Assembly: GCA_964488545.1 (NCBI GenBank)
Contig: CAZAUL010000001.1
Location: 54,955-118,954, forward strand
Direction: 5' to 3'
Length of the DNA stretch: 64,000 nucleotides
Origin: an uncultured Gammaproteobacteria bacterium
GTDB taxonomy: Bacteria > Patescibacteriota > Microgenomatia > UBA1406 > GWC2-37-13
The position numbers and the translations under genes were made by a program. The notes under the pieces were generated by a model. It ran no database searches. It saw only the letters and a program-made list of their open reading frames with translations, and was not told the origin of the DNA. This document shows, piece after piece, positions 555-56,443 of this stretch. Position 1 is the first letter of the stretch. Every line of letters begins with the position of its first letter.

Positions 555-556
555 TA

Positions 557-599
557 TAGTCATTGGTATAGTAGTCATAAGTCGTTAGTAGTTAATTAT
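557..599 (+). repeat. Degenerate ~7-nt tandem repeat (TAGTCAT-like) in the spacer upstream of the 612 CDS
   Basis: TAGTCAT TGGTATAG TAGTCAT AAGTCGT TAGTAGT TAATTAT read directly from the sequence. Confidence 0.4.
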
Positions 600-611
600 T
601 AAGAAATTACT

Positions 612-26859: not shown

Positions 26860-26916
26860 ATCCCAATATCCCAATTAATAAATGACCAATGTCAGATGAC
26901 AAATGACCAATGATCA
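26860..26916. repeat. Tandem octamer ATCCCAAT x2, then five tandem heptamers ATGACCA/ATGTCAG/ATGACAA/ATGACCA/ATGATCA
   Basis: Read directly from the murJ/mraZ divergent intergenic region. The same ATGACCA heptad family occurs at 56367..56401. Confidence 0.65.
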
Positions 26917-30186: not shown

Positions 30187-30228
30187 TACAAAATTACAAA
30201 TGACATGTTTCAAATAACAATTGAAATT
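30187..30228 (+). repeat. Period-7 degenerate repeat in the ftsI-murE spacer (TACAAAA TTACAAA TGACATG TTTCAAA TAACAAT TGAAATT)
   Basis: T at heptad position 1 in six consecutive units. AT-rich, so this is weaker than the other loci. Confidence 0.35.
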
Positions 30229-35882: not shown

Positions 35883-35917
35883 AGAATTACAAATTACCAA
35901 TTTCAAATTATAAATCA
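35883..35917 (+). repeat. Five tandem degenerate heptamers AGAATTA CAAATTA CCAATTT CAAATTA TAAATCA
   Basis: Read directly from the murA-glmU-like spacer. Confidence 0.5.
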
Positions 35918-43906: not shown

Positions 43907-43984
43907 TTTTAAAATCATAAATTTCAATTTATATTGAAAGAAATAATAAATTAAAATTGAGAATTTTAAATTAACAATGTATTT

Positions 43985-49373: not shown

Positions 49374-49408
49374 ATAAGTTGTGAGCTACAAGCTATAAGT
49401 TACAAAAA
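49374..49408 (+). repeat. Five tandem degenerate heptamers ATAAGTT GTGAGCT ACAAGCT ATAAGTT ACAAAAA
   Basis: Read directly from the ftsA-ftsZ spacer. Ends 3 nt before the ftsZ ATG. Confidence 0.5.
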
Positions 49409-49411
49409 TCT

Positions 49412-50539
49412 ATGTTAATAAAACCAAGCGCAGGTCAACCAGCCCGAATTAAAGTTATTGGAGTTGGGGGTGGCGGAGGTAATGCGCTATCTTCTATGAT
49501 AGGTGAGGGTGGTATCGCAGGTGTTGAATTTGTTGCGGTAAACACGGATGCACAAGCATTACTACATAATAAGGCGGCAATAAAGGTGCAAATAGGAGAA
49601 CAGGTAACTAAGGGCCTTGGATCTGGTGGTAATCCTGAAGTGGGTCGACAAGCCGCTGAGGAGTCACGCGAGCGAATCAAGGAAGAGATAGCCGGTAGTG
49701 ACATGGTTTTTATTACGTGTGGCGAGGGTGGTGGTACTGGCACGGGCGCCTCACCCATAGTTGCCGAAGTTGCCAAAGAATCAGGGGCATTAACAATCGC
49801 TGTAGTTACACGGCCATTTGAATTTGAAGGTTCGAGAAGAAAATTTGCTGCCGATGACGGTATTCAAAAGTTAAAGGAAAAAGTTGATACTTTGATTGTG
49901 GTACCAAATCAACGTATTTTACAGGTTGTCGATAGAAAAACGCCAGTACTTGAAGCGTTTAAGAAAATAGACTCTGTACTACACCAGGGAGTAAAAGGAG
50001 TTGCTGAACTTATTACTGTACCCGGACTTATTAATGTAGACTTTGCAGATGTGCGCACCATTATGAGTAACGCAGGTACAGCTATAATGGGAGTTGGTAC
50101 GGGTACCGGTGATAAACGGGCTATCGCAGCAATTAAAATGGCTATATCATCACCACTTCTTGACACCTCAATCGAAGGAGCTCGCGGAGTACTCTTTAAT
50201 GTGATGGGTGGACCAGACCTCACGATGGCTGAGATAGATGAAGCCGCCTCTCTTATCACTAAGTCGGTAGATCCTGATGCTGATATTATTTTCGGAGCAG
50301 TAATTGATGATCAAATGATGGATCAAATAAAAGTAACGCTTGTAGCCACAAAGTTTGATGAGTCCCGCATTAAACTTTTTAACTTTAAAAAGACGCCAGA
50401 ATATACCGAGCCAAAATACGAAGAGAAAAAAGAGGTGATAGAAAAAGAGGTTGATGAACGAGTTGACTTAGCTTCGTCAGATGAGATGATGGAGGACGAC
50501 AACGAGTTTGACATCCCAGCATTTTTGAGAAAGAAGTAA
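49412..50539 (+). CDS. ftsZ: Cell-division GTPase FtsZ
   Basis: GVGGGGGNA, the tubulin signature GGGTGTGASP, and the C-terminal peptide DIPAFLRKK. Confidence 0.97.
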   Translation: MLIKPSAGQPARIKVIGVGGGGGNALSSMIGEGGIAGVEFVAVNTDAQALLHNKAAIKVQIGEQVTKGLGSGGNPEVGRQAAEESRERIKEEIAGSDMVFITCGEGGGTGTGASPIVAEVAKESGALTIAVVTRPFEFEGSRRKFAADDGIQKLKEKVDTLIVVPNQRILQVVDRKTPVLEAFKKIDSVLHQGVKGVAELITVPGLINVDFADVRTIMSNAGTAIMGVGTGTGDKRAIAAIKMAISSPLLDTSIEGARGVLFNVMGGPDLTMAEIDEAASLITKSVDPDADIIFGAVIDDQMMDQIKVTLVATKFDESRIKLFNFKKTPEYTEPKYEEKKEVIEKEVDERVDLASSDEMMEDDNEFDIPAFLRKK

Positions 50540-50548
50540 TGCTATAAT
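50540..50548 (+). promoter_or_regulatory. Extended -10 element TGcTATAAT, 7 nt upstream of the ileS ATG
   Basis: Read directly from the sequence. No good -35 at 17 nt. Confidence 0.4.
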
Positions 50549-50555
50549 TATCTTC

Positions 50556-53495
50556 ATGTTTAAACCTGTTTCGTCTACTCAACACTTTCCAGATATGGAA
50601 AAGGCCCTTCTTGATAAATGGTATTCCACCGGAATAATTTCAAAGTATATTCATAAAAACGCAACCGCCACAAAAACATTCTCATTTTTAGACGGACCAA
50701 TTACAGCAAACAATCCCATGGGCGTACATCACGCGTGGGGTAGGACCTATAAAGATATATGGCAGAAATATCACAATTTACATGGTTATCGTGAGCGCTT
50801 CCAAAGCGGATTTGACTGTCAGGGGTTATGGGTTGAGGTTGAGGTTGAAAAAGAGCTGGGACTGAGGTCGAAAAAAGATATTGAAAATCTTGTGCCAGGC
50901 GACCGCAATGCATCTATAGCCAAATTTGTTCAGTTGTGTAAAGATCGCGTACATAAATTTTCCAAAGTGCAGACAGAACAGTCGAAACGGCTTGGCTATT
51001 TTATGGACTGGGACAACTCATATTTTACGATGAGCGATGAAAATAACTACATGATATGGCATTTTTTAAAGGTTTGCTATGAAAACGGATGGATGTATAA
51101 AGGGCATGAGTCAGTGCCGTGGTGTCCACGATGTGAAACAGCCATATCACAACACGAAATGCTTACCGAAGACTACAAGGAAGTAGTACATGATTCGCTG
51201 TTTATTGAGGTCCCCATTGTTGGGAGGAAAAATGAATATTTGCTGTATTGGACTACCACTCCATGGACACTGCCGGCAAATATCGCTGTAGCCGTTGATG
51301 AGAATATTGAATACTCACTCGTTGAAGGAATTACGGGAAAACAGTTTTGGGTCGCAAAGGATAGGGTTGAAGACATATTTGGAAAAGAAAAAAAATCAAT
51401 AATTAAAACTGTTAAGGGTAAAGAGTTGGTCGGTCTAAAGTATGAGGGTCCGTTTGACCATCTTCCCGCTGTATCCGAAGTTGGTGGTTCTCACCCTCTT
51501 TTTCACACAGTAGTTGCAACCGACCCTCTCATCATGCCCATTTCAACAACTGAAGGAACTGGTCTGGTACATACAGCGGTGAGTGCAGGTACTGAGGATT
51601 TTATGCTTGGAAAAAAGCGAGGTTTACCTATGATACCTGTTATTGCTGATGATGCCTCGTATCTTCAGGGTTTTAACGAATTTTCAGGTAAGAATGCAAA
51701 AAAACATCCAGAACTGATTGTTGAGTTTGTAAAGAATCATAAAGATGGAGAGTTTTTCTTTAAAATGCTTCGGTACAAACACAGATATCCAGGATGTTGG
51801 CGATGCAAGTCTGAATTAGTTTGGAAAGTAGCAGATGAATGGTACATTGGAATGGATATAAAAGGTAAAGACGGCAAAACGTTTAGAGAGCGTATGATTG
51901 CTGTTGCAAAGCAAATCAACTGGATTCCATCTTTCGGACTTGAGAGAGAGCTTGACTGGCTCAACAATATGCATGATTGGTTGATAAGTAAAAAAAACAG
52001 ATACTGGGGTCTTGCGCTTCCCATATATGAATGTGAGTCATGTAAAAAGTTTGAGGTGATTGGTTCGAAAGATGAACTGAAATCACGTGCAATATCCGGC
52101 TGGGCTCAGTTTGATGGTAACTCTCCTCATAAGCCTTTTATTGATGAGGTAACTATCGCATGCGGATCCTGTAAAAAAGAAATGCTACGCATAGATGATG
52201 TGGGAAACCCATGGCTTGATGCGGGTATAGTGGCATATTCCACAATTGCCAAAGACAACGGAAAAACACCTCTTTACCTGGAGGACAAAAAAAAGTGGGA
52301 GGAGTGGTTTCCAGCAGATTTTATTACCGAATCATTTCCAGGTCAGTTTAAAAACTGGTTTTATGCACTTATTGCGATGTCGACAGCTCTCGAAGACAAG
52401 CCGCCTTTTAAGACAGTGCTTGGATTTGCAACTTGCACCGGAGAAGACGGAAGACCCATGCATAAAAGCTGGGGAAACTATATTGAATTTAATGAAGGCG
52501 CGGAAAAAATAGGTGTCGACGTAATGCGATGGATGTATGCACGGCAAAACCCAGCTGACAATCTTTTGTTTGGCTACAAACGAGCCGATGAAGTTCGCAG
52601 ACAGTTTTATTTGATGATTTGGAATATCTATAAATTTTTTGTTGACTACGCGAATCTTGAAAAAATATCGCTAACAAAGAGTGCAAATGCCGTTTCCGTG
52701 TTGGACCAATGGATACTTGCAAGACTGTATCAATATGTTGAAACTGCGAAGACGGCTTATGACGCATTCGATGTTCAAACGGTGGCGCTTCAGGGGGAGT
52801 CGTTTATTCAAGATGTATCTACCTGGTTCATTCGCCGAAGCCGAGATCGTGTTTGGGTGAATTCAGATAACGCAGAAGATAAACAGTCATTCTATAATAC
52901 GATGCACACAGTACTAACAACGTTTGCGGTGGTAACCTCGCCCGTAATGCCATTTATCACCGATGAAATTATTACCAACCTTACTGTAGAGTCATCGGTG
53001 CATTTGTGCAGTTGGCCGGTACTTTCTCATGACTTCAAAAACGAAGATATAATCGGAGATATGGCGCTTGTTCGTACCGTTGCTGAAACAGGGCATAGAG
53101 TGCGCAAGGAAAATAAACTCAAAGTGCGCCAACCGCTCGCCAAGGCAGTAATAATGTTAGGAAAGGGTAAAGCATTTGGAATTTCGACAAACCGCGATGA
53201 ATACATGAAACTGCTTAAGCTCGAACTGAACGTAAAACAACTATCCTTTGAGTCTTCTCAATCCGATGATTCCAGTGTTGTCTTTGATACTGGTATGACA
53301 GACGACCTGATTTATGAAGGAAAGTTACGAGATCTAATCAGATCTATTCAGGAAATGAGAAAAAATCAGGCAGTGCGTACAGATCAAAATATCAAATTGA
53401 GTATTCCTGCGGAGTTTATGAAGTCAAGCGATGTAATTGCAAAAAAAGTATTGGCAACAGATATTACGGAGGGTGAACTATGTATTCGCTCTTAA
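50556..53495 (+). CDS. ileS: Isoleucine--tRNA ligase
   Basis: FSFLDGPITANN..., WCPRCETAIS, DWLISKKNRYWGLALP, and a C-terminal anticodon-binding region. The class I signatures are divergent (VHHA, PMHKS). Confidence 0.85.
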   Translation: MFKPVSSTQHFPDMEKALLDKWYSTGIISKYIHKNATATKTFSFLDGPITANNPMGVHHAWGRTYKDIWQKYHNLHGYRERFQSGFDCQGLWVEVEVEKELGLRSKKDIENLVPGDRNASIAKFVQLCKDRVHKFSKVQTEQSKRLGYFMDWDNSYFTMSDENNYMIWHFLKVCYENGWMYKGHESVPWCPRCETAISQHEMLTEDYKEVVHDSLFIEVPIVGRKNEYLLYWTTTPWTLPANIAVAVDENIEYSLVEGITGKQFWVAKDRVEDIFGKEKKSIIKTVKGKELVGLKYEGPFDHLPAVSEVGGSHPLFHTVVATDPLIMPISTTEGTGLVHTAVSAGTEDFMLGKKRGLPMIPVIADDASYLQGFNEFSGKNAKKHPELIVEFVKNHKDGEFFFKMLRYKHRYPGCWRCKSELVWKVADEWYIGMDIKGKDGKTFRERMIAVAKQINWIPSFGLERELDWLNNMHDWLISKKNRYWGLALPIYECESCKKFEVIGSKDELKSRAISGWAQFDGNSPHKPFIDEVTIACGSCKKEMLRIDDVGNPWLDAGIVAYSTIAKDNGKTPLYLEDKKKWEEWFPADFITESFPGQFKNWFYALIAMSTALEDKPPFKTVLGFATCTGEDGRPMHKSWGNYIEFNEGAEKIGVDVMRWMYARQNPADNLLFGYKRADEVRRQFYLMIWNIYKFFVDYANLEKISLTKSANAVSVLDQWILARLYQYVETAKTAYDAFDVQTVALQGESFIQDVSTWFIRRSRDRVWVNSDNAEDKQSFYNTMHTVLTTFAVVTSPVMPFITDEIITNLTVESSVHLCSWPVLSHDFKNEDIIGDMALVRTVAETGHRVRKENKLKVRQPLAKAVIMLGKGKAFGISTNRDEYMKLLKLELNVKQLSFESSQSDDSSVVFDTGMTDDLIYEGKLRDLIRSIQEMRKNQAVRTDQNIKLSIPAEFMKSSDVIAKKVLATDITEGELCIRS

Positions 53496-54530: not shown

Positions 54531-54559
54531 TTGAAAATTAAGCCCAAGTGCTTTATAAT
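54531..54559 (+). promoter_or_regulatory. Near-consensus promoter TTGAAA-17-TATAAT, 8 nt from the rplU ATG
   Basis: Read directly from the sequence. Confidence 0.55.
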
Positions 54560-54877: not shown

Positions 54878-54912
54878 AGCTATTAGCTAGTCGCTAACAG
54901 CAATAAGCTAAC
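54878..54912 (+). repeat. Five tandem degenerate heptamers AGCTATT AGCTAGT CGCTAAC AGCAATA AGCTAAC
   Basis: Fills the whole rplU-rpmA spacer and ends 1 nt before the rpmA ATG. Confidence 0.55.
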
Positions 54913-55159: not shown

Positions 55160-55191
55160 AACAGTACTGCTCTATATGATAGAATGTTCAC

Positions 55192-55734
55192 ATGTTAGAG
55201 GAACATCGCGCAGTTATTGAACAAATTAAAAACACTCCCGATTATTTTCAAAAGGCGAAGCTTATTGCTTACCTGATGCGTGATCACAACGTGCGAATAA
55301 AAGATATTGCCGAAATGCTCAAAATGACGCAGTCATATGTATGTCATATTATTCGGTTGAACAAACTTCCAGAATTAATTACAGACGGATACTACTCAAA
55401 GCTTATCACTATTAGTCACTTGTTTGTACTTTCGCTTCTCAAGTCAGAGGAAGCAATGATTACACTCTATGAGGAGATTTTAAGAGATAGTCTCAGTGTA
55501 AAGGCAACCGAAGAGAGAATAAGAAACATGGTGCACAATGTGAGTTCTGAGGGGGATTATGTTGATAAGCACCATATACAAAAATCAACCCAGGTAGTAA
55601 TGGATAAATATTCTGCGAAAGTAAAACTTATCCAGACCCGCATAAAAACAAAGTTGATACTTGAATGGACTGGTTCGCGCAAAGACCGGCATGCAAAAGT
55701 AAAGGAGTTGCTTACAAAATTATCCCAAATCTAA
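55192..55734 (+). CDS. ParB-like HTH protein lacking the N-terminal ParB/Srx (CTP-binding) domain
   Basis: IKDIAEMLKMTQSYVCHIIRLNKLPELI, ITISHLFVLSLL and LSVKATEERIRNM parallel the ParB HTH region. No GxRRxRA-type box is present. Confidence 0.5.
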   Translation: MLEEHRAVIEQIKNTPDYFQKAKLIAYLMRDHNVRIKDIAEMLKMTQSYVCHIIRLNKLPELITDGYYSKLITISHLFVLSLLKSEEAMITLYEEILRDSLSVKATEERIRNMVHNVSSEGDYVDKHHIQKSTQVVMDKYSAKVKLIQTRIKTKLILEWTGSRKDRHAKVKELLTKLSQI

Positions 55735-56352
55735 CACAACTGCAGGAAGTGCAGTTCGTAAGTTAGAAGGAAACGGATTTTGTATTGTCCCCATTTTAGA
55801 AGGGGGGAAATAGCGGTAAAACACCTGTCCGATAACACTCTCCATTGGAATTGGACCAAACTCACGGGAATCAGATGATCGAGGTCTGTTGTCACCCATA
55901 ACAAACAGCATGCCATCAGGCACGGTCACTGCTTCTCCGTCTTTGGAAAAGCCACCCTCCCACAGATTAGTTTTTGCGGCGATATAGTCTTCTTTAAGAA
56001 GTTGACCATTTACATACACTTCGCTGTCTTTTACCATTACCTGATCGCCAGGCACACCAATAATACGTTTAATATACTCAATATCGGGATTGTGAGGGGA
56101 TCGAAACACGACTACATCGCCACGCTCATACTCTCTCATTTTATAGGTGACTTTGCTTGTAAAAATATAGTCGCCTGAGTTAAAGGTAGGGTCCATTGAA
56201 GCGCCTTTTACCTGATTAGGCTGCATAACAAAAAGATATACCACAATAAAAAGTGACCCAACAAAAACAACCGTTTCAAGAATATCCATGATGAAGTTGA
56301 ATATCCCTTTTGCAATTTCGAGAAAATCGATATCAAGATCCATAAAAGTCAT
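55720..56352 (-). CDS. lepB: Signal peptidase I (LepB)
   Basis: VKGASMDPTF (catalytic Ser), KRIIGVPGD (Lys), and GDNRPRSSDSR. ATG at 56352 was chosen; the longer track ORF translates the heptad repeat. Confidence 0.9.
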   Translation of the reverse strand: MTFMDLDIDFLEIAKGIFNFIMDILETVVFVGSLFIVVYLFVMQPNQVKGASMDPTFNSGDYIFTSKVTYKMREYERGDVVVFRSPHNPDIEYIKRIIGVPGDQVMVKDSEVYVNGQLLKEDYIAAKTNLWEGGFSKDGEAVTVPDGMLFVMGDNRPRSSDSREFGPIPMESVIGQVFYRYFPPSKMGTIQNPFPSNLRTALPAVVLDLG

Positions 56353-56366
56353 TGTACCATTTTTTA

Positions 56367-56401
56367 ATGACCAATGATCAATGACCAATAACCAATAACC
56401 A
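56367..56401. repeat. Five tandem heptamers ATGACCA ATGATCA ATGACCA ATAACCA ATAACCA
   Basis: Read directly from the sequence, 15 nt upstream of the lepB start (minus strand: TGGTTAT TGGTTAT TGGTCAT TGATCAT TGGTCAT). Same family as 26882..26916. Confidence 0.65.
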
Positions 56402-56413
56402 AAGCGGGTAGAG

Positions 56414-56443
56414 TTGGAAAAAGAGATGGGAATCAATTACAAT
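56414..56443 (+). promoter_or_regulatory. Candidate tRNA-Val promoter TTGGAA-18-TACAAT
   Basis: Read directly from the sequence, 15 nt upstream of the mature tRNA 5' end. Confidence 0.4.

What the first reader, a model, noticed from the sequence alone, without database searches (positions are those of the whole stretch)
54878..54912. Operon-internal spacers built from locus-specific period-7 repeats (rplU-rpmA, ftsA-ftsZ, murA-glmU-like, ftsI-murE)
Several gaps between co-directional genes consist almost entirely of 5-6 degenerate tandem heptamers, and each gap has its own consensus. The rplU-rpmA gap (54878..54912) reads AGCTATT AGCTAGT CGCTAAC AGCAATA AGCTAAC. The ftsA-ftsZ gap (49374..49408) reads ATAAGTT GTGAGCT ACAAGCT ATAAGTT ACAAAAA. 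The murA-glmU-like gap (35883..35917) reads AGAATTA CAAATTA CCAATTT CAAATTA TAAATCA. The ftsI-murE gap (30187..30228) reads TACAAAA TTACAAA TGACATG TTTCAAA TAACAAT TGAAATT. The MurL-like-murD gap (43907..43984) is weaker. None of these leaders has a GGAGG-type Shine-Dalgarno sequence, and two arrays end 1-3 nt before the ATG. One hypothesis is that genes in this genome are translated as leaderless mRNAs, by stop/start coupling, or via these unstructured repeat spacers acting as SD-independent ribosome landing pads. Replication slippage without function is the alternative.
Basis: partly seen in the sequence, partly recalled or inferred. Interest (0 to 1): 0.6.

Follow-up and report, generated by a model that had tools for sequence, protein, structure and literature searches.

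The report
Seven-base repeat spacers from hairpin cassettes
The short 7-base repeats between genes of this tiny candidate-phyla bacterium are real, but they are not ribosome landing pads: they belong to genome-wide repeat families that also form the paired arms of small hairpin cassettes carrying a "ribosomal-RNA intervening-sequence protein" gene, which gives a testable lead on why bacteria favour 7-base repeats.

Summary
The period-7 signal is real. Lag 7 is the strongest autocorrelation in the intergenic DNA of this 0.97-Mb Roizmanbacteria-like genome (z=22). 45 of 315 gaps are significant at lag 7, against 1-11 at any other lag.

The units are not locus-specific. The murA and ftsI gaps carry the genome-wide AAATNAC family (107 arrays, 3 expected). 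The rplU-rpmA and ftsA-ftsZ gaps share an AGCTA-type unit.

In sister species the same junctions are 4-9 nt. Where they are expanded, the filler is again heptamers: 15 of 16 expanded orthologous gaps.

No Shine-Dalgarno signal exists genome-wide, although the 16S rRNA keeps CCUCC. Conserved extended -10 boxes sit flush with ATGs, so leaderless expression is supported. The landing-pad idea is not. Arrays show no orientation bias or start-codon preference and are not unusually unstructured.

The same repeat families form flush inverted arms around every PF05635 (23S-rRNA IVS protein) gene examined: 4 in this genome, 9 in relatives. A congener's cassette arm matches the rplU-rpmA unit.

Best reading: the spacers are solo arms or fragments of IVS-like heptamer-armed cassettes and their gene-less hairpin derivatives. 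They are tolerated because translation here does not use SD.

The parts
54878..54912 (+). rplU-rpmA spacer: five degenerate heptamers AGCTATT AGCTAGT CGCTAAC AGCAATA AGCTAAC. It fills the 37-nt gap.
   Evidence: lag-7 identity 0.57-0.61, p=0.0015; it aligns in register with both arms of a PF05635 cassette of congener G001 and with G008's array at the same junction, with 17 invariant columns. RNA-library contigs span it; no indels in four other strains.
49374..49408 (+). ftsA-ftsZ spacer: five heptamers with an AAGYTAC / AGCTA core.
   Evidence: lag-7 identity 0.51-0.57, p=0.0025. G002 has an AAGTTTC / CTTGTAA inverted pair at this junction, G005 a period-9 AACTTTATA array, and G009, G003, G004 and G007 only 4-9 nt.
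35883..35917 (+). murA to GlmU-like gene spacer: (C)AAATTA-type array, a member of the genome-wide AAATNAC family. It occupies the first 40 nt of a 91-nt gap and does not abut the start codon.
   Evidence: TRF 35885-35915, unit AATTACA, score 41; p=0.0005; family definition.
30187..30228 (+). ftsI-murE spacer: decayed AAATNAC-family array (AAATTAC AAATGAC ... AAATAAC).
   Evidence: the cited stretch has lag-7 identity 0.54, p=0.0065; the whole gap is only p=0.08.
43907..43984 (+). Spacer between an unassigned 405-aa ORF and murD: A/T-rich, with only marginal period 7.
   Evidence: lag 6 and lag 7 are both 0.49, p(lag 7)=0.067. Not individually significant.
26880..26916 (+). (A/C)AATGAC array followed by a short inverted piece (GATCATTTGTC), between divergent genes. 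Same family.
   Evidence: TRF score 40; gap p=0.005.
56366..56402 (+). (AATGACC)5.3 array, the best in the window. It lies just upstream (on the - strand) of the probable true start of the 55720-56436 ORF, next to tRNA-Val.
   Evidence: TRF score 53; relatives' proteins align only from residue 16-33; tRNA; one strain contig carries 34 extra repeat letters here.
555..611 (+). Further co-directional gap with weak period 7 (TAGTCAT-type units).
   Evidence: p=0.02, lag-7 identity 0.48.
54531..54559 (+). Context, not a repeat: rplU promoter TTGAAA-17 nt-TATAAT, ending 8 nt before the ATG (leaderless-type geometry).
   Evidence: the -35, the -10 and their spacing are conserved in seven congeners.
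55177..55185 (+). Context: extended -10 box TGATAGAAT, 6 nt before the ATG at 55192.
   Evidence: TGnTAnAAT followed by 6-7 nt and the ATG is conserved in all seven congeners compared.
50540..50548 (+). Context: extended -10 box TGCTATAAT, 7 nt before the ATG at 50556 (the gene after ftsZ).
   Evidence: conserved in G005, G009, G004, G003 and G007.

Best explanation
The spacers are short solo arrays of a genome-wide class of tandem 7-nt (occasionally 8-9-nt) repeats.

In this genome and its relatives, the same unit families form the two flush, inverted arms of small palindromic cassettes. Each cassette carries a PF05635 gene in its loop ('23S rRNA intervening-sequence protein', a four-helix bundle). 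The families also form many gene-less hairpins and roughly 200-nt composite palindromes.

These elements occupy whatever non-coding DNA this roughly 1-Mb genome offers. That includes junctions inside conserved operons that are only 4-9 nt long in sister species.

The four cited arrays are insertions or remnants of this kind. Two are of the AAATNAC family, whose arms bracket two PF05635 genes of this genome. Two are AGCTA-type; the unit of the rplU-rpmA array matches the arms of a congener's cassette.

The rplU-rpmA array is transcribed inside the operon mRNA. The arrays have no dedicated role in translation initiation. They are tolerated because this lineage initiates without Shine-Dalgarno pairing, using leaderless promoters and short-gap restarts.

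Shown here:
- the periodicity;
- the unit families;
- the turnover at orthologous junctions;
- the association of cassette gene and arms;
- the absence of an SD signal.

Inferred:
- that solo arrays derive from cassette arms;
- that paired arms are RNase III substrates, as in true IVSs;
- how the elements spread.
For: (1) Period 7 dominates genome-wide.

(2) AAATNAC family:
- 107 arrays of at least 3 units, against 3 in a Markov-shuffled genome.
- Position 5 is free (0.08 bit), the others carry 0.9-1.9 bit.
- All 18 inverted neighbour pairs have the A-rich arm 5' (18:0), as expected for copies of one palindromic element.
- They fold as 6-bp helices interrupted by 1x1 mismatches, z -5 to -7.
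- A composite palindrome of about 200 nt has at least 13 long copies and 40 BLAST matches, many at contig ends.

(3) PF05635 cassettes:
- All 4 PF05635 matches in this genome sit between inverted tandem-repeat arms. C29 and C30 have AAATNAC/GTNATTT, C37 has AAAGTCN/NGACTTT, C31 has TTAGTTN/NAACTAA.
- The background is 2 of 800 genes under a strict criterion.
- 9 of 9 relatives' PF05635 loci examined have flush inverted arms of 7-9-nt units.

(4) Unit sharing:
- G001's cassette arms (AGCTATT... / CTAAAAG CTAACAG...) align in register with the rplU-rpmA array.
- G005's cassette arms (AACTTTATA) equal G005's ftsA-ftsZ array.

(5) PF05635 protein clades track arm families.

(6) PF05635 copy number correlates with composite-element matches across 31 genomes (Spearman 0.72, p=5e-6). 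None of the 8 PF05635-less genomes has a match.

(7) Orthologous junctions are 4-9 nt in most congeners. When expanded, the filler is period 7 in 15 of 16 cases, with different units. The tree requires at least 2 gains or at least 3 losses.

(8) A published precedent exists. The Coxiella 23S IVS has (GACAGAT)2-3 heptamers upstream of its S23p ORF and an inverted-repeat stem that RNase III cuts (PMC4990558). An RNase III gene is present here.
Against: - None of the four cited gaps contains a PF05635 gene or a clear partner arm, so the link rests on shared unit families rather than a demonstrated history.
- The family-matching criterion is lenient: 85% of arrays match an arm family, but so do 46% of random heptamers of the same composition.
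- No presence/absence polymorphism of hairpins or arrays was seen among strains about 1-2% diverged, so no recent mobility was observed.
- No transposase-like partner or target-site duplication was identified.
- The reverse causality is possible: arrays arise everywhere and PF05635 genes settle in them.
- Gene calls came from a crude home-made caller, and the genome is a 70-contig draft.
Confidence: 0.58

Rival explanations
1. Pure local replication slippage. Each array arose where it lies by a period-7-biased polymerase slippage process (the Mrazek 2007 proposal), is neutral, and has no connection with PF05635 cassettes.
For: - Over-representation of heptamers is known in many bacteria (PMC4679880 introduction; PMC4692102).
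- MutS is absent from this genome and from 28 of 31 in the set.
- The cited gaps hold direct repeats only.
- The last unit resembles the ancestral 6-nt spacer (..AACT|ATG).
Against: - Adjacent units are no more alike at the free position than chance (0.22 against 0.27 expected).
- There is no unit-length polymorphism in four other strains.
- Many arrays are copies of longer shared sequences.
- Unit families coincide with cassette arms and track PF05635 clades.
- MutS status does not track array abundance: G016 has MutS and 27 matches.
Confidence: 0.2
2. Selected RNA-level elements. The paired arms, and perhaps the solo arrays, are intercistronic processing, terminator or stabiliser signals (RNase III sites, REP/BIME-like), maintained for their periodic structure rather than their sequence.
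For: - At the uvrB-uvrA junction, six congeners have heptamer-built fillers made from different units: AAATNAC, AACTCTN, CTAAACN, AAATTTN. In G000, G005 and G002 these are clear inverted arm pairs (p<=0.003).
- The orthologous cassette between two tRNA genes shows a concerted, compensatory change in all units of both arms: TTAGTT/AACTAA in this genome, TTAGCT/AGCTAA in G001.
- RNase III is present.
- The rplU-rpmA array is transcribed.
Against: - The free positions of the two arms do not co-vary, and stability equals that of N-permuted controls.
- Hairpin DNA diverges about 3 times faster than flanking genes between strains.
- Several congeners have 4-nt junctions with no element.
- The four cited arrays are direct repeats, not hairpins.
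Confidence: 0.12
3. One reading: the arrays are SD-independent ribosome landing pads or translation enhancers, as proposed for the TAACTGA repeats of Beggiatoaceae.
For: - There is no SD anywhere.
- Two arrays end 1-3 nt before the ATG.
- A three-domain S1 protein is encoded.
- The analogous proposal is in PMC4679880.
Against: - No sense-orientation bias: 12 sense against 17 antisense in co-directional gaps.
- 17% of arrays lie within 10 nt of a start codon, against 23% within 10 nt of a stop codon.
- The spacers are not less structured than shuffles.
- The same genes sit 4-9 nt after the upstream stop in most congeners.
- No cold-shock-domain protein is encoded.
Confidence: 0.07
4. DNA operator arrays. 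A small dimeric DNA-binding protein polymerises on the heptads, as the omega repressor of pSM19035 does on WATCACW heptads (recalled from memory, not tested).
For: The unit AATCACA fits WATCACW, and both direct and inverted arrangements occur.
Against: - Only about a quarter of units carry C at the free position.
- Several unrelated unit families coexist.
- Arrays lie in all gap types, including convergent ones.
- No candidate protein was examined.
Confidence: 0.03

Closest known systems
Heptanucleotide long simple-sequence repeats: cyanobacterial STRR (Mazel et al. 1990, from memory), TAACTGA repeats of Beggiatoaceae (MacGregor 2015, PMC4679880), GGGAATC repeats of Xanthomonas and Nostoc (Rehm et al. 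2015, PMC4692102)
   Same: - Tandem 7-nt units, 3-14 copies, strongly enriched in intergenic DNA.
- Several unit families per genome.
- Direct and inverted arrangements.
- SD-poor neighbourhoods.
- The CAATGAC unit is a rotation of the complement of STRR2 (TTGGTCA).
   Different: - Found here in a roughly 1-Mb Patescibacteria genome.
- Arrays are short and degenerate, with one free position.
- Unlike TAACTGA repeats, they are not concentrated in sense orientation just upstream of start codons.
- Here they are tied to PF05635 cassettes, and insertion into otherwise 4-9-nt operon junctions can be traced across congeners.
S23p-type intervening sequences (IVS) of 23S rRNA, e.g. Coxiella burnetii (Warrier et al. 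2016, PMC4990558)
   Same: - A PF05635 ORF enclosed by terminal inverted repeats that form a stem.
- Tandem heptamers directly upstream of the ORF.
- RNase III is encoded by the host.
   Different: - The cassettes seen here lie between protein genes or tRNA genes, not in 23S rRNA helices.
- Both arms are wholly tandem repeats.
- Many gene-less copies and solo arrays exist.
- Excision by RNase III is untested.
REP/BIME and MITE-type dispersed palindromes (e.g. REPIN-RAYT; PMC2817692 appeared but was not read)
   Same: - Dozens of short, intergenic, hairpin-forming copies.
- Patchy lineage-specific bursts.
- They break assemblies.
   Different: - Internal 7-nt periodicity.
- No RAYT or transposase partner was looked for or found.
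- No target-site duplications were seen.
Leaderless, SD-independent gene expression (Zheng et al. 2011, PMC3160421; GeneMarkS-2 group C, PMC6028130; both appeared but were not read in full)
   Same: - A -10-like TANNNT at -12..-7 from the ATG.
- No SD enrichment.
- A pyrimidine at -1.
   Different: This applies to the genome in general, not to the array-bearing junctions. The anti-SD is retained.

Membership tests
Heptanucleotide tandem repeats (LSSR / STRR type) | Tandem head-to-tail units of 7 nt, at least 3 copies | tested here: met
Heptanucleotide tandem repeats (LSSR / STRR type) | Genome-wide excess of period 7 over neighbouring periods and over composition-matched shuffles, concentrated in intergenic DNA | tested here: met
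Heptanucleotide tandem repeats (LSSR / STRR type) | Several distinct unit sequences in one genome | tested here: met
   AAATNAC, AAATTTC, AAAGTCN, AGCTAnn, CTAAACN and others
S23p-type IVS / PF05635 cassette | PF05635 ORF inside the element | tested here: not met
   Not met for the four cited spacers: the window holds no PF05635 gene. It is met for four cassettes elsewhere in the genome. The spacers are therefore filed as related repeats, not as cassettes.
S23p-type IVS / PF05635 cassette | Terminal inverted repeats flush with the ORF that can form a stem | tested here: met
   Met for the cassettes: 4 of 4 in this genome by inspection, 2 of 4 by the strict script against 2 of 800 background genes, and 9 of 9 loci in relatives.
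S23p-type IVS / PF05635 cassette | Located in helix 25 or 45 of 23S rRNA and excised from the precursor by RNase III | not testable with these tools
   The cassettes seen lie between protein or tRNA genes. The 23S gene was not examined. The RNase III gene is present. No RNA-end data are available.
TAACTGA-type leader repeats (proposed translational elements) | Majority in sense orientation within a few nt upstream of start codons | tested here: not met
Leaderless / SD-independent initiation | No SD enrichment upstream of starts, despite or without an anti-SD | tested here: met
   7.2% against 7.3% background; the anti-SD CCUCC is present.
Leaderless / SD-independent initiation | -10 hexamer 6-8 nt upstream of the ATG | tested here: inconclusive
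   Met genome-wide (peak at -12) and for rplU, the gene after rpmA and the gene after ftsZ. Not met for rpmA and ftsZ themselves, by inspection. No TSS data are available.
MITE / REPIN | Cognate transposase (or RAYT) and target-site duplications | not tested
   No duplications are evident in the alignment of 13 copies. No transposase search was made.

The most novel reading that the evidence does not exclude
PF05635 four-helix-bundle proteins recognise the tandem units of their own arms, roughly one protomer per 7-9-nt unit. The gene-plus-arms cassette is an unrecognised class of selfish element. Its arms, gene-less hairpins and solo remnants seed much of the unexplained heptamer-repeat excess in bacteria, including cyanobacterial STRR and TAACTGA repeats. 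The 7-nt ruler would then be a protein footprint, not a polymerase property.
Probability: 0.2. Interest if true: 0.8.

Novelty: new variant of a known kind. Interest (0 to 1): 0.55.

Why it matters
Heptanucleotide repeats have been known in bacteria since 1990. They were shown to be the most over-represented long simple repeat in 2007, yet neither their origin nor the reason for the number seven is known.

This roughly 1-Mb genome, with a dozen syntenic congeners, gives a compact comparative system. In it one can see that:
- gaps are born as heptamer arrays;
- periodicity is kept while sequence changes;
- the units match the arms of PF05635 cassettes, and PF05635 protein clades track the arm families.

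That turns a descriptive puzzle into binding and processing experiments: PF05635 protein against its arms, and RNase III against the stems.

The analysis also documents that a Microgenomates lineage keeps the anti-SD but shows no SD signal, and that it places extended -10 promoters flush with start codons. This matters for gene calling and expression models in candidate-phyla genomes.

Tried and rejected
- **Stop codons in all three frames as the point of a 7-nt period.** About 42% of random AT-rich heptamers already contain a stop (own estimate), and only 41% of AAATNAC units do on the sense strand. No enrichment, so dropped.
- **Cold-shock proteins (6-7-nt footprint) as binders.** No CSD gene is present.
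- **Mismatch-repair loss as the cause of array richness.** MutS is absent from almost the whole order, and the MutS-bearing G016 is array-rich.
- **Complementarity, or avoidance of it, at the free position of the paired arms.** The first test looked significant. It vanished with the proper refolding control.
- **Universal A-rich-arm-first polarity.** This holds 18:0 for AAATNAC but not for A/T-only families, so it is a family trait and not a rule.
- **Arrays as -35 or -10 donors for leaderless promoters.** Individual cases fit (TAATTT, TTGTCA) but no consistent spacing was found. There are no TSS data, so this was not pursued.
- **Origin of units from the ancestral 4-9-nt spacer.** Only the terminal ..AACT|ATG is shared. 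Inconclusive.
- **Copy-number polymorphism among strains.** None at the cited arrays or at two hairpins.
- **Known RNA families in the gaps.** Rfam finds only a tRNA.

Full report
**Checking the observation**

Pfam confirms the flanking genes: L21, L27, FtsA, FtsZ, MurA, a GlmU-like nucleotidyl/acetyl-transferase, a class-B PBP and two Mur ligases.

- In each gap, lag 7 gives the highest self-identity of lags 2-12; in the murL-murD gap it ties with lag 6.
- Against dinucleotide-preserving shuffles, the whole gaps give p=0.0015 (rplU-rpmA), 0.0025 (ftsA-ftsZ) and 0.0005 (murA-next).
- The ftsI-murE and murL-murD gaps give only 0.08 and 0.067.

I laid the whole assembly in the Python box: 966,710 bases, 70 contigs, 39.7% G+C. 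I called genes with a simple codon-usage-scored ORF picker, which found 869 genes covering 87% of the genome.

- Intergenic DNA has lag-7 identity of 0.294, against 0.271 after shuffling (z=22). This is the strongest of lags 1-21.
- TRF finds 145 intergenic period-7 arrays, against 14 at period 6 and 24 at period 8.
- A stricter detector gives 79 arrays at period 7 and at most 7 at any other period, apart from the harmonic at 14.
- 45 of 315 gaps of 25-400 nt reach p<=0.01 at lag 7. About 3 are expected, and other lags give 1-11.

**The units are not locus-specific**

Most arrays belong to one family, (A/C)AAT-N-A-C.

- There are 107 arrays of at least three units, against 3 in a Markov-shuffled genome.
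- Position 5 is essentially free (0.08 bit). The other positions carry 0.9-1.9 bit.
- The murA and ftsI gaps, and the arrays at 26880 and 56366, belong to this family.
- The rplU-rpmA and ftsA-ftsZ arrays share an AGCTA core.

Neighbouring units are no more alike at the free position than chance (0.22 against 0.27 expected). Many arrays repeat the same order of units (...G, A, C). They are therefore copies of longer shared sequences, not fresh slippage products.

Arrays often come as inverted pairs.

- All 18 such pairs have the A-rich arm 5' and the T-rich arm 3' (18:0).
- They fold as long hairpins of 6-bp helices separated by single mismatches, z -5 to -7.
- A composite palindrome of about 200 nt has at least 13 long copies and 40 BLAST matches in the genome.
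- 27 of 86 motif hits lie next to contig ends, so the family breaks the assembly.

**Organism and translation signals**

FtsZ is 73% identical to that of a Candidatus Roizmanbacteria MAG. All near relatives are Patescibacteria of the Microgenomates group.

- The 3' end of 16S rRNA, on contig C9, reads GGATCACCTCCTTTC, a normal anti-SD.
- Even so, GGAG/GAGG/AGGA occurs at -20..-4 in 7.2% of genes, against 7.3% in a control window at -60..-44.
- TANNNT peaks sharply with its first base at -12 (129 genes, against about 35 at neighbouring positions). T occupies -1 in 58% of genes. This is the usual signature of leaderless transcripts.
- Comparison with seven congeners shows conserved extended -10 boxes (TGnTAnAAT) 6-8 nt before the ATG of rplU, of the gene after rpmA and of the gene after ftsZ.

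The genes behind the two best arrays (rpmA, ftsZ) have no -10 box at the right distance. In most congeners they lie 4-9 nt behind the upstream stop codon, which points to restart after termination.

**Testing the landing-pad idea**

- AAATNAC arrays in co-directional gaps are 12 sense and 17 antisense.
- Significant gaps occur in co-directional (15%), convergent (22%) and divergent (8%) contexts.
- 17% of array ends lie within 10 nt of a start codon and 23% within 10 nt of a stop codon. Random placement gives 10-11% for each.
- The cited spacers are not less structured than shuffles. The rplU-rpmA spacer is more structured (z=-2.4), because AGCT is self-complementary.
- A three-domain S1 protein is encoded, but no cold-shock-domain protein.

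Nothing points to a dedicated role in ribosome recruitment.

**Orthologous junctions**

This was the most informative comparison.

- *rplU-rpmA.* The gap is 3-11 nt in 17 of 24 genomes. In the other seven it is 34-63 nt, with lag 7 always the best lag.
- *ftsA-ftsZ.* The gap is 4-9 nt in four congeners. It is expanded in this genome, in G005 (period 9) and in G002 (an inverted heptamer pair).
- *uvrB-uvrA.* This genome has an AAATNAC hairpin, G005 an AACTCTN hairpin, G002 a CTAAACN hairpin, and G007, G006 and G001 have AAATTTN arrays. G009 has 4 nt and G004 a G+C-rich hairpin.

Of 16 expanded orthologous gaps, 15 have lag 7 as the best lag, and 12 have p<=0.004.

A tree from 2,543 aligned residues puts (G000, G005) as the earliest branch of the genus and nests G002 beside the array-less G004. 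The shared arrays therefore need at least two gains or at least three losses.

In this lineage, new spacer DNA is made of heptamers. Periodicity and hairpin build persist while the unit sequence changes.

**Population and RNA data**

Contigs from four independent sludge or bioreactor metagenomes hold strains about 1-2% diverged.

- They show no indels in the rplU-rpmA or ftsA-ftsZ arrays.
- They keep the uvrB-uvrA and C11 hairpins, with one 1-nt indel.
- The uvrB-uvrA hairpin carries about 5% substitutions, against 1.6% in the flanking genes.

These are therefore not hypervariable contingency loci, and no recent mobility was caught.

Contigs from three RNA libraries span the rplU-rpmA array without a gap, so it is probably transcribed inside the operon mRNA. 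Depth is only 2-5x, and DNA carry-over cannot be excluded.

**The cassette link**

Earlier notes of this scan on other phyla reported that heptamer-armed hairpins bracket PF05635 genes ('23S rRNA intervening-sequence protein'). I treated this as a lead and tested it here.

- This genome has four PF05635 matches. All four lie between inverted tandem-repeat arms:
  - C37 has (AAAGTCN)n / (NGACTTT)n;
  - C31 has (TTAGTTN)n / (NAACTAA)n;
  - C29 and C30 have the AAATNAC / GTNATTT family.
- A strict script finds such arms for 2 of these 4 genes, and for 2 of 800 other genes.
- In relatives, nine of nine PF05635 loci examined have flush inverted arms of 7-9-nt units.
- The arms of G001's cassette (AGCTATT AGCTATT AGCCAAT AGCTATT / CTAAAAG CTAACAG CCATTAG CTAATAG) align in register with the rplU-rpmA array of the window and with G008's array at the same junction.
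- G005's cassette arms (AACTTTATA type) equal G005's ftsA-ftsZ array.
- The G001 cassette and the cassette on C31 lie at the same site, between two tRNA genes. They differ by a concerted change in every unit of both arms: TTAGTT/AACTAA against TTAGCT/AGCTAA.
- PF05635 proteins cluster by arm family.
- Across 31 genomes, PF05635 copy number correlates with matches to the composite palindrome (Spearman 0.72, p=5e-6). None of the eight genomes without PF05635 has a match.
- One published case points the same way. The Coxiella 23S IVS has two or three GACAGAT heptamers upstream of its S23p ORF and an inverted-repeat stem that RNase III cuts (PMC4990558). This genome encodes RNase III.

**Interpretation**

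The cited spacers are short solo arrays of repeat families whose full form is an IVS-like cassette: a PF05635 gene between heptamer arms. Gene-less hairpins and composite palindromes are its abundant derivatives. These elements settle in any non-coding gap, including operon junctions. They are tolerated because downstream genes need no SD at a fixed distance.

What remains inferred:
- the descent of the four solo arrays from cassette arms, since they have no partner arm or gene;
- the way the elements spread, since no transposase, target duplication or insertion polymorphism was seen;
- processing of the stems by RNase III.

Plain slippage remains a serious rival for the two AGCTA-type arrays. 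A selected RNA-structural role remains possible for the hairpins, although the free positions of the two arms do not co-vary.

**Comparison with what is known**

Intergenic heptamer repeats are a known, unexplained kind:
- the STRR repeats of cyanobacteria;
- the 2007 survey by Mrazek, as cited;
- the TAACTGA repeats (PMC4679880);
- the GGGAATC repeats (PMC4692102);
- the Nostoc recF/recO heptamers (bioRxiv 10.1101/2022.06.06.494920).

IVSs carrying an S23p ORF are also known.

I did not find three things in the searched literature:
- such repeats in Patescibacteria;
- the traceable birth of operon spacers as heptamer arrays;
- the tie between free-standing PF05635 cassettes and the heptamer families.

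I therefore class the finding as a new variant of a known kind. Its observation, and its SD-less/leaderless inference, are supported.

**Limits**

- The genome is a draft.
- The gene caller is home-made.
- RNA evidence is shallow.
- The family-matching statistic is lenient: 85% of arrays match an arm family, against 46% of random heptamers.
- The relatives' genomes were sampled, not read whole.

Noticed in passing
window 50539-50543: Strain contigs of runs X5 and X7 carry about 900 extra bases between ftsZ and the next gene. Congener G002 has a 954-nt gap at the same junction. The content was not examined; it is not a PF05635 match in G002.
   Followed up: partly
genome contigs C6:9-1111 and C9 (3' end), outside the window: The 16S rRNA gene is in pieces: model positions 9-873 and 1058-1097 lie on C6, and the 3' end lies on C9. 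This suggests insertions in the gene, or assembly breaks, as is common in candidate-phyla bacteria.
   Followed up: no
L007:2882-3000 (CAYZCU010000011.1, another Microgenomates-type MAG): The ftsA-ftsZ gap (119 nt) is an inverted pair of 8-nt tandem repeats (TAGTAACC... / ...CAGATCAC), with lag-8 identity of 0.76. The same phenomenon occurs with an octamer ruler.
   Followed up: no
window 55720-56436 (- strand ORF): The listed TTG start is probably too far upstream, because relatives' proteins align only from residue 16-33. A TGGTACAAT box followed by 7 nt and an ATG near 56340 fits a leaderless start, with the (TTGGTYA)5 array directly upstream of it.
   Followed up: partly
genome contig C31:1-620 and L156:1380-1920 (G001): A PF05635 cassette sits between two tRNA genes at the orthologous site in two congeners. 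Every unit of both arms differs by the same compensatory pair: TTAGTT/AACTAA against TTAGCT/AGCTAA.
   Followed up: partly
31 relatives: PF05635 genes are unusually numerous in these roughly 1-Mb genomes, up to 9 copies, and present in 23 of 31. Only 1 of 14 well-known control genomes has any.
   Followed up: partly
whole genome and 30 relatives: This genome has no cold-shock-domain protein. MutS is missing from it and from 28 of 31 genomes of the set, including this one.
   Followed up: no
   Followed up: no
genome contigs C50:425-470 and C42 (flank of the composite element): Two composite palindromes share an extra flanking small hairpin, TCCTGAATTTATTTCAGGA. It may be another short dispersed repeat.
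   Followed up: no
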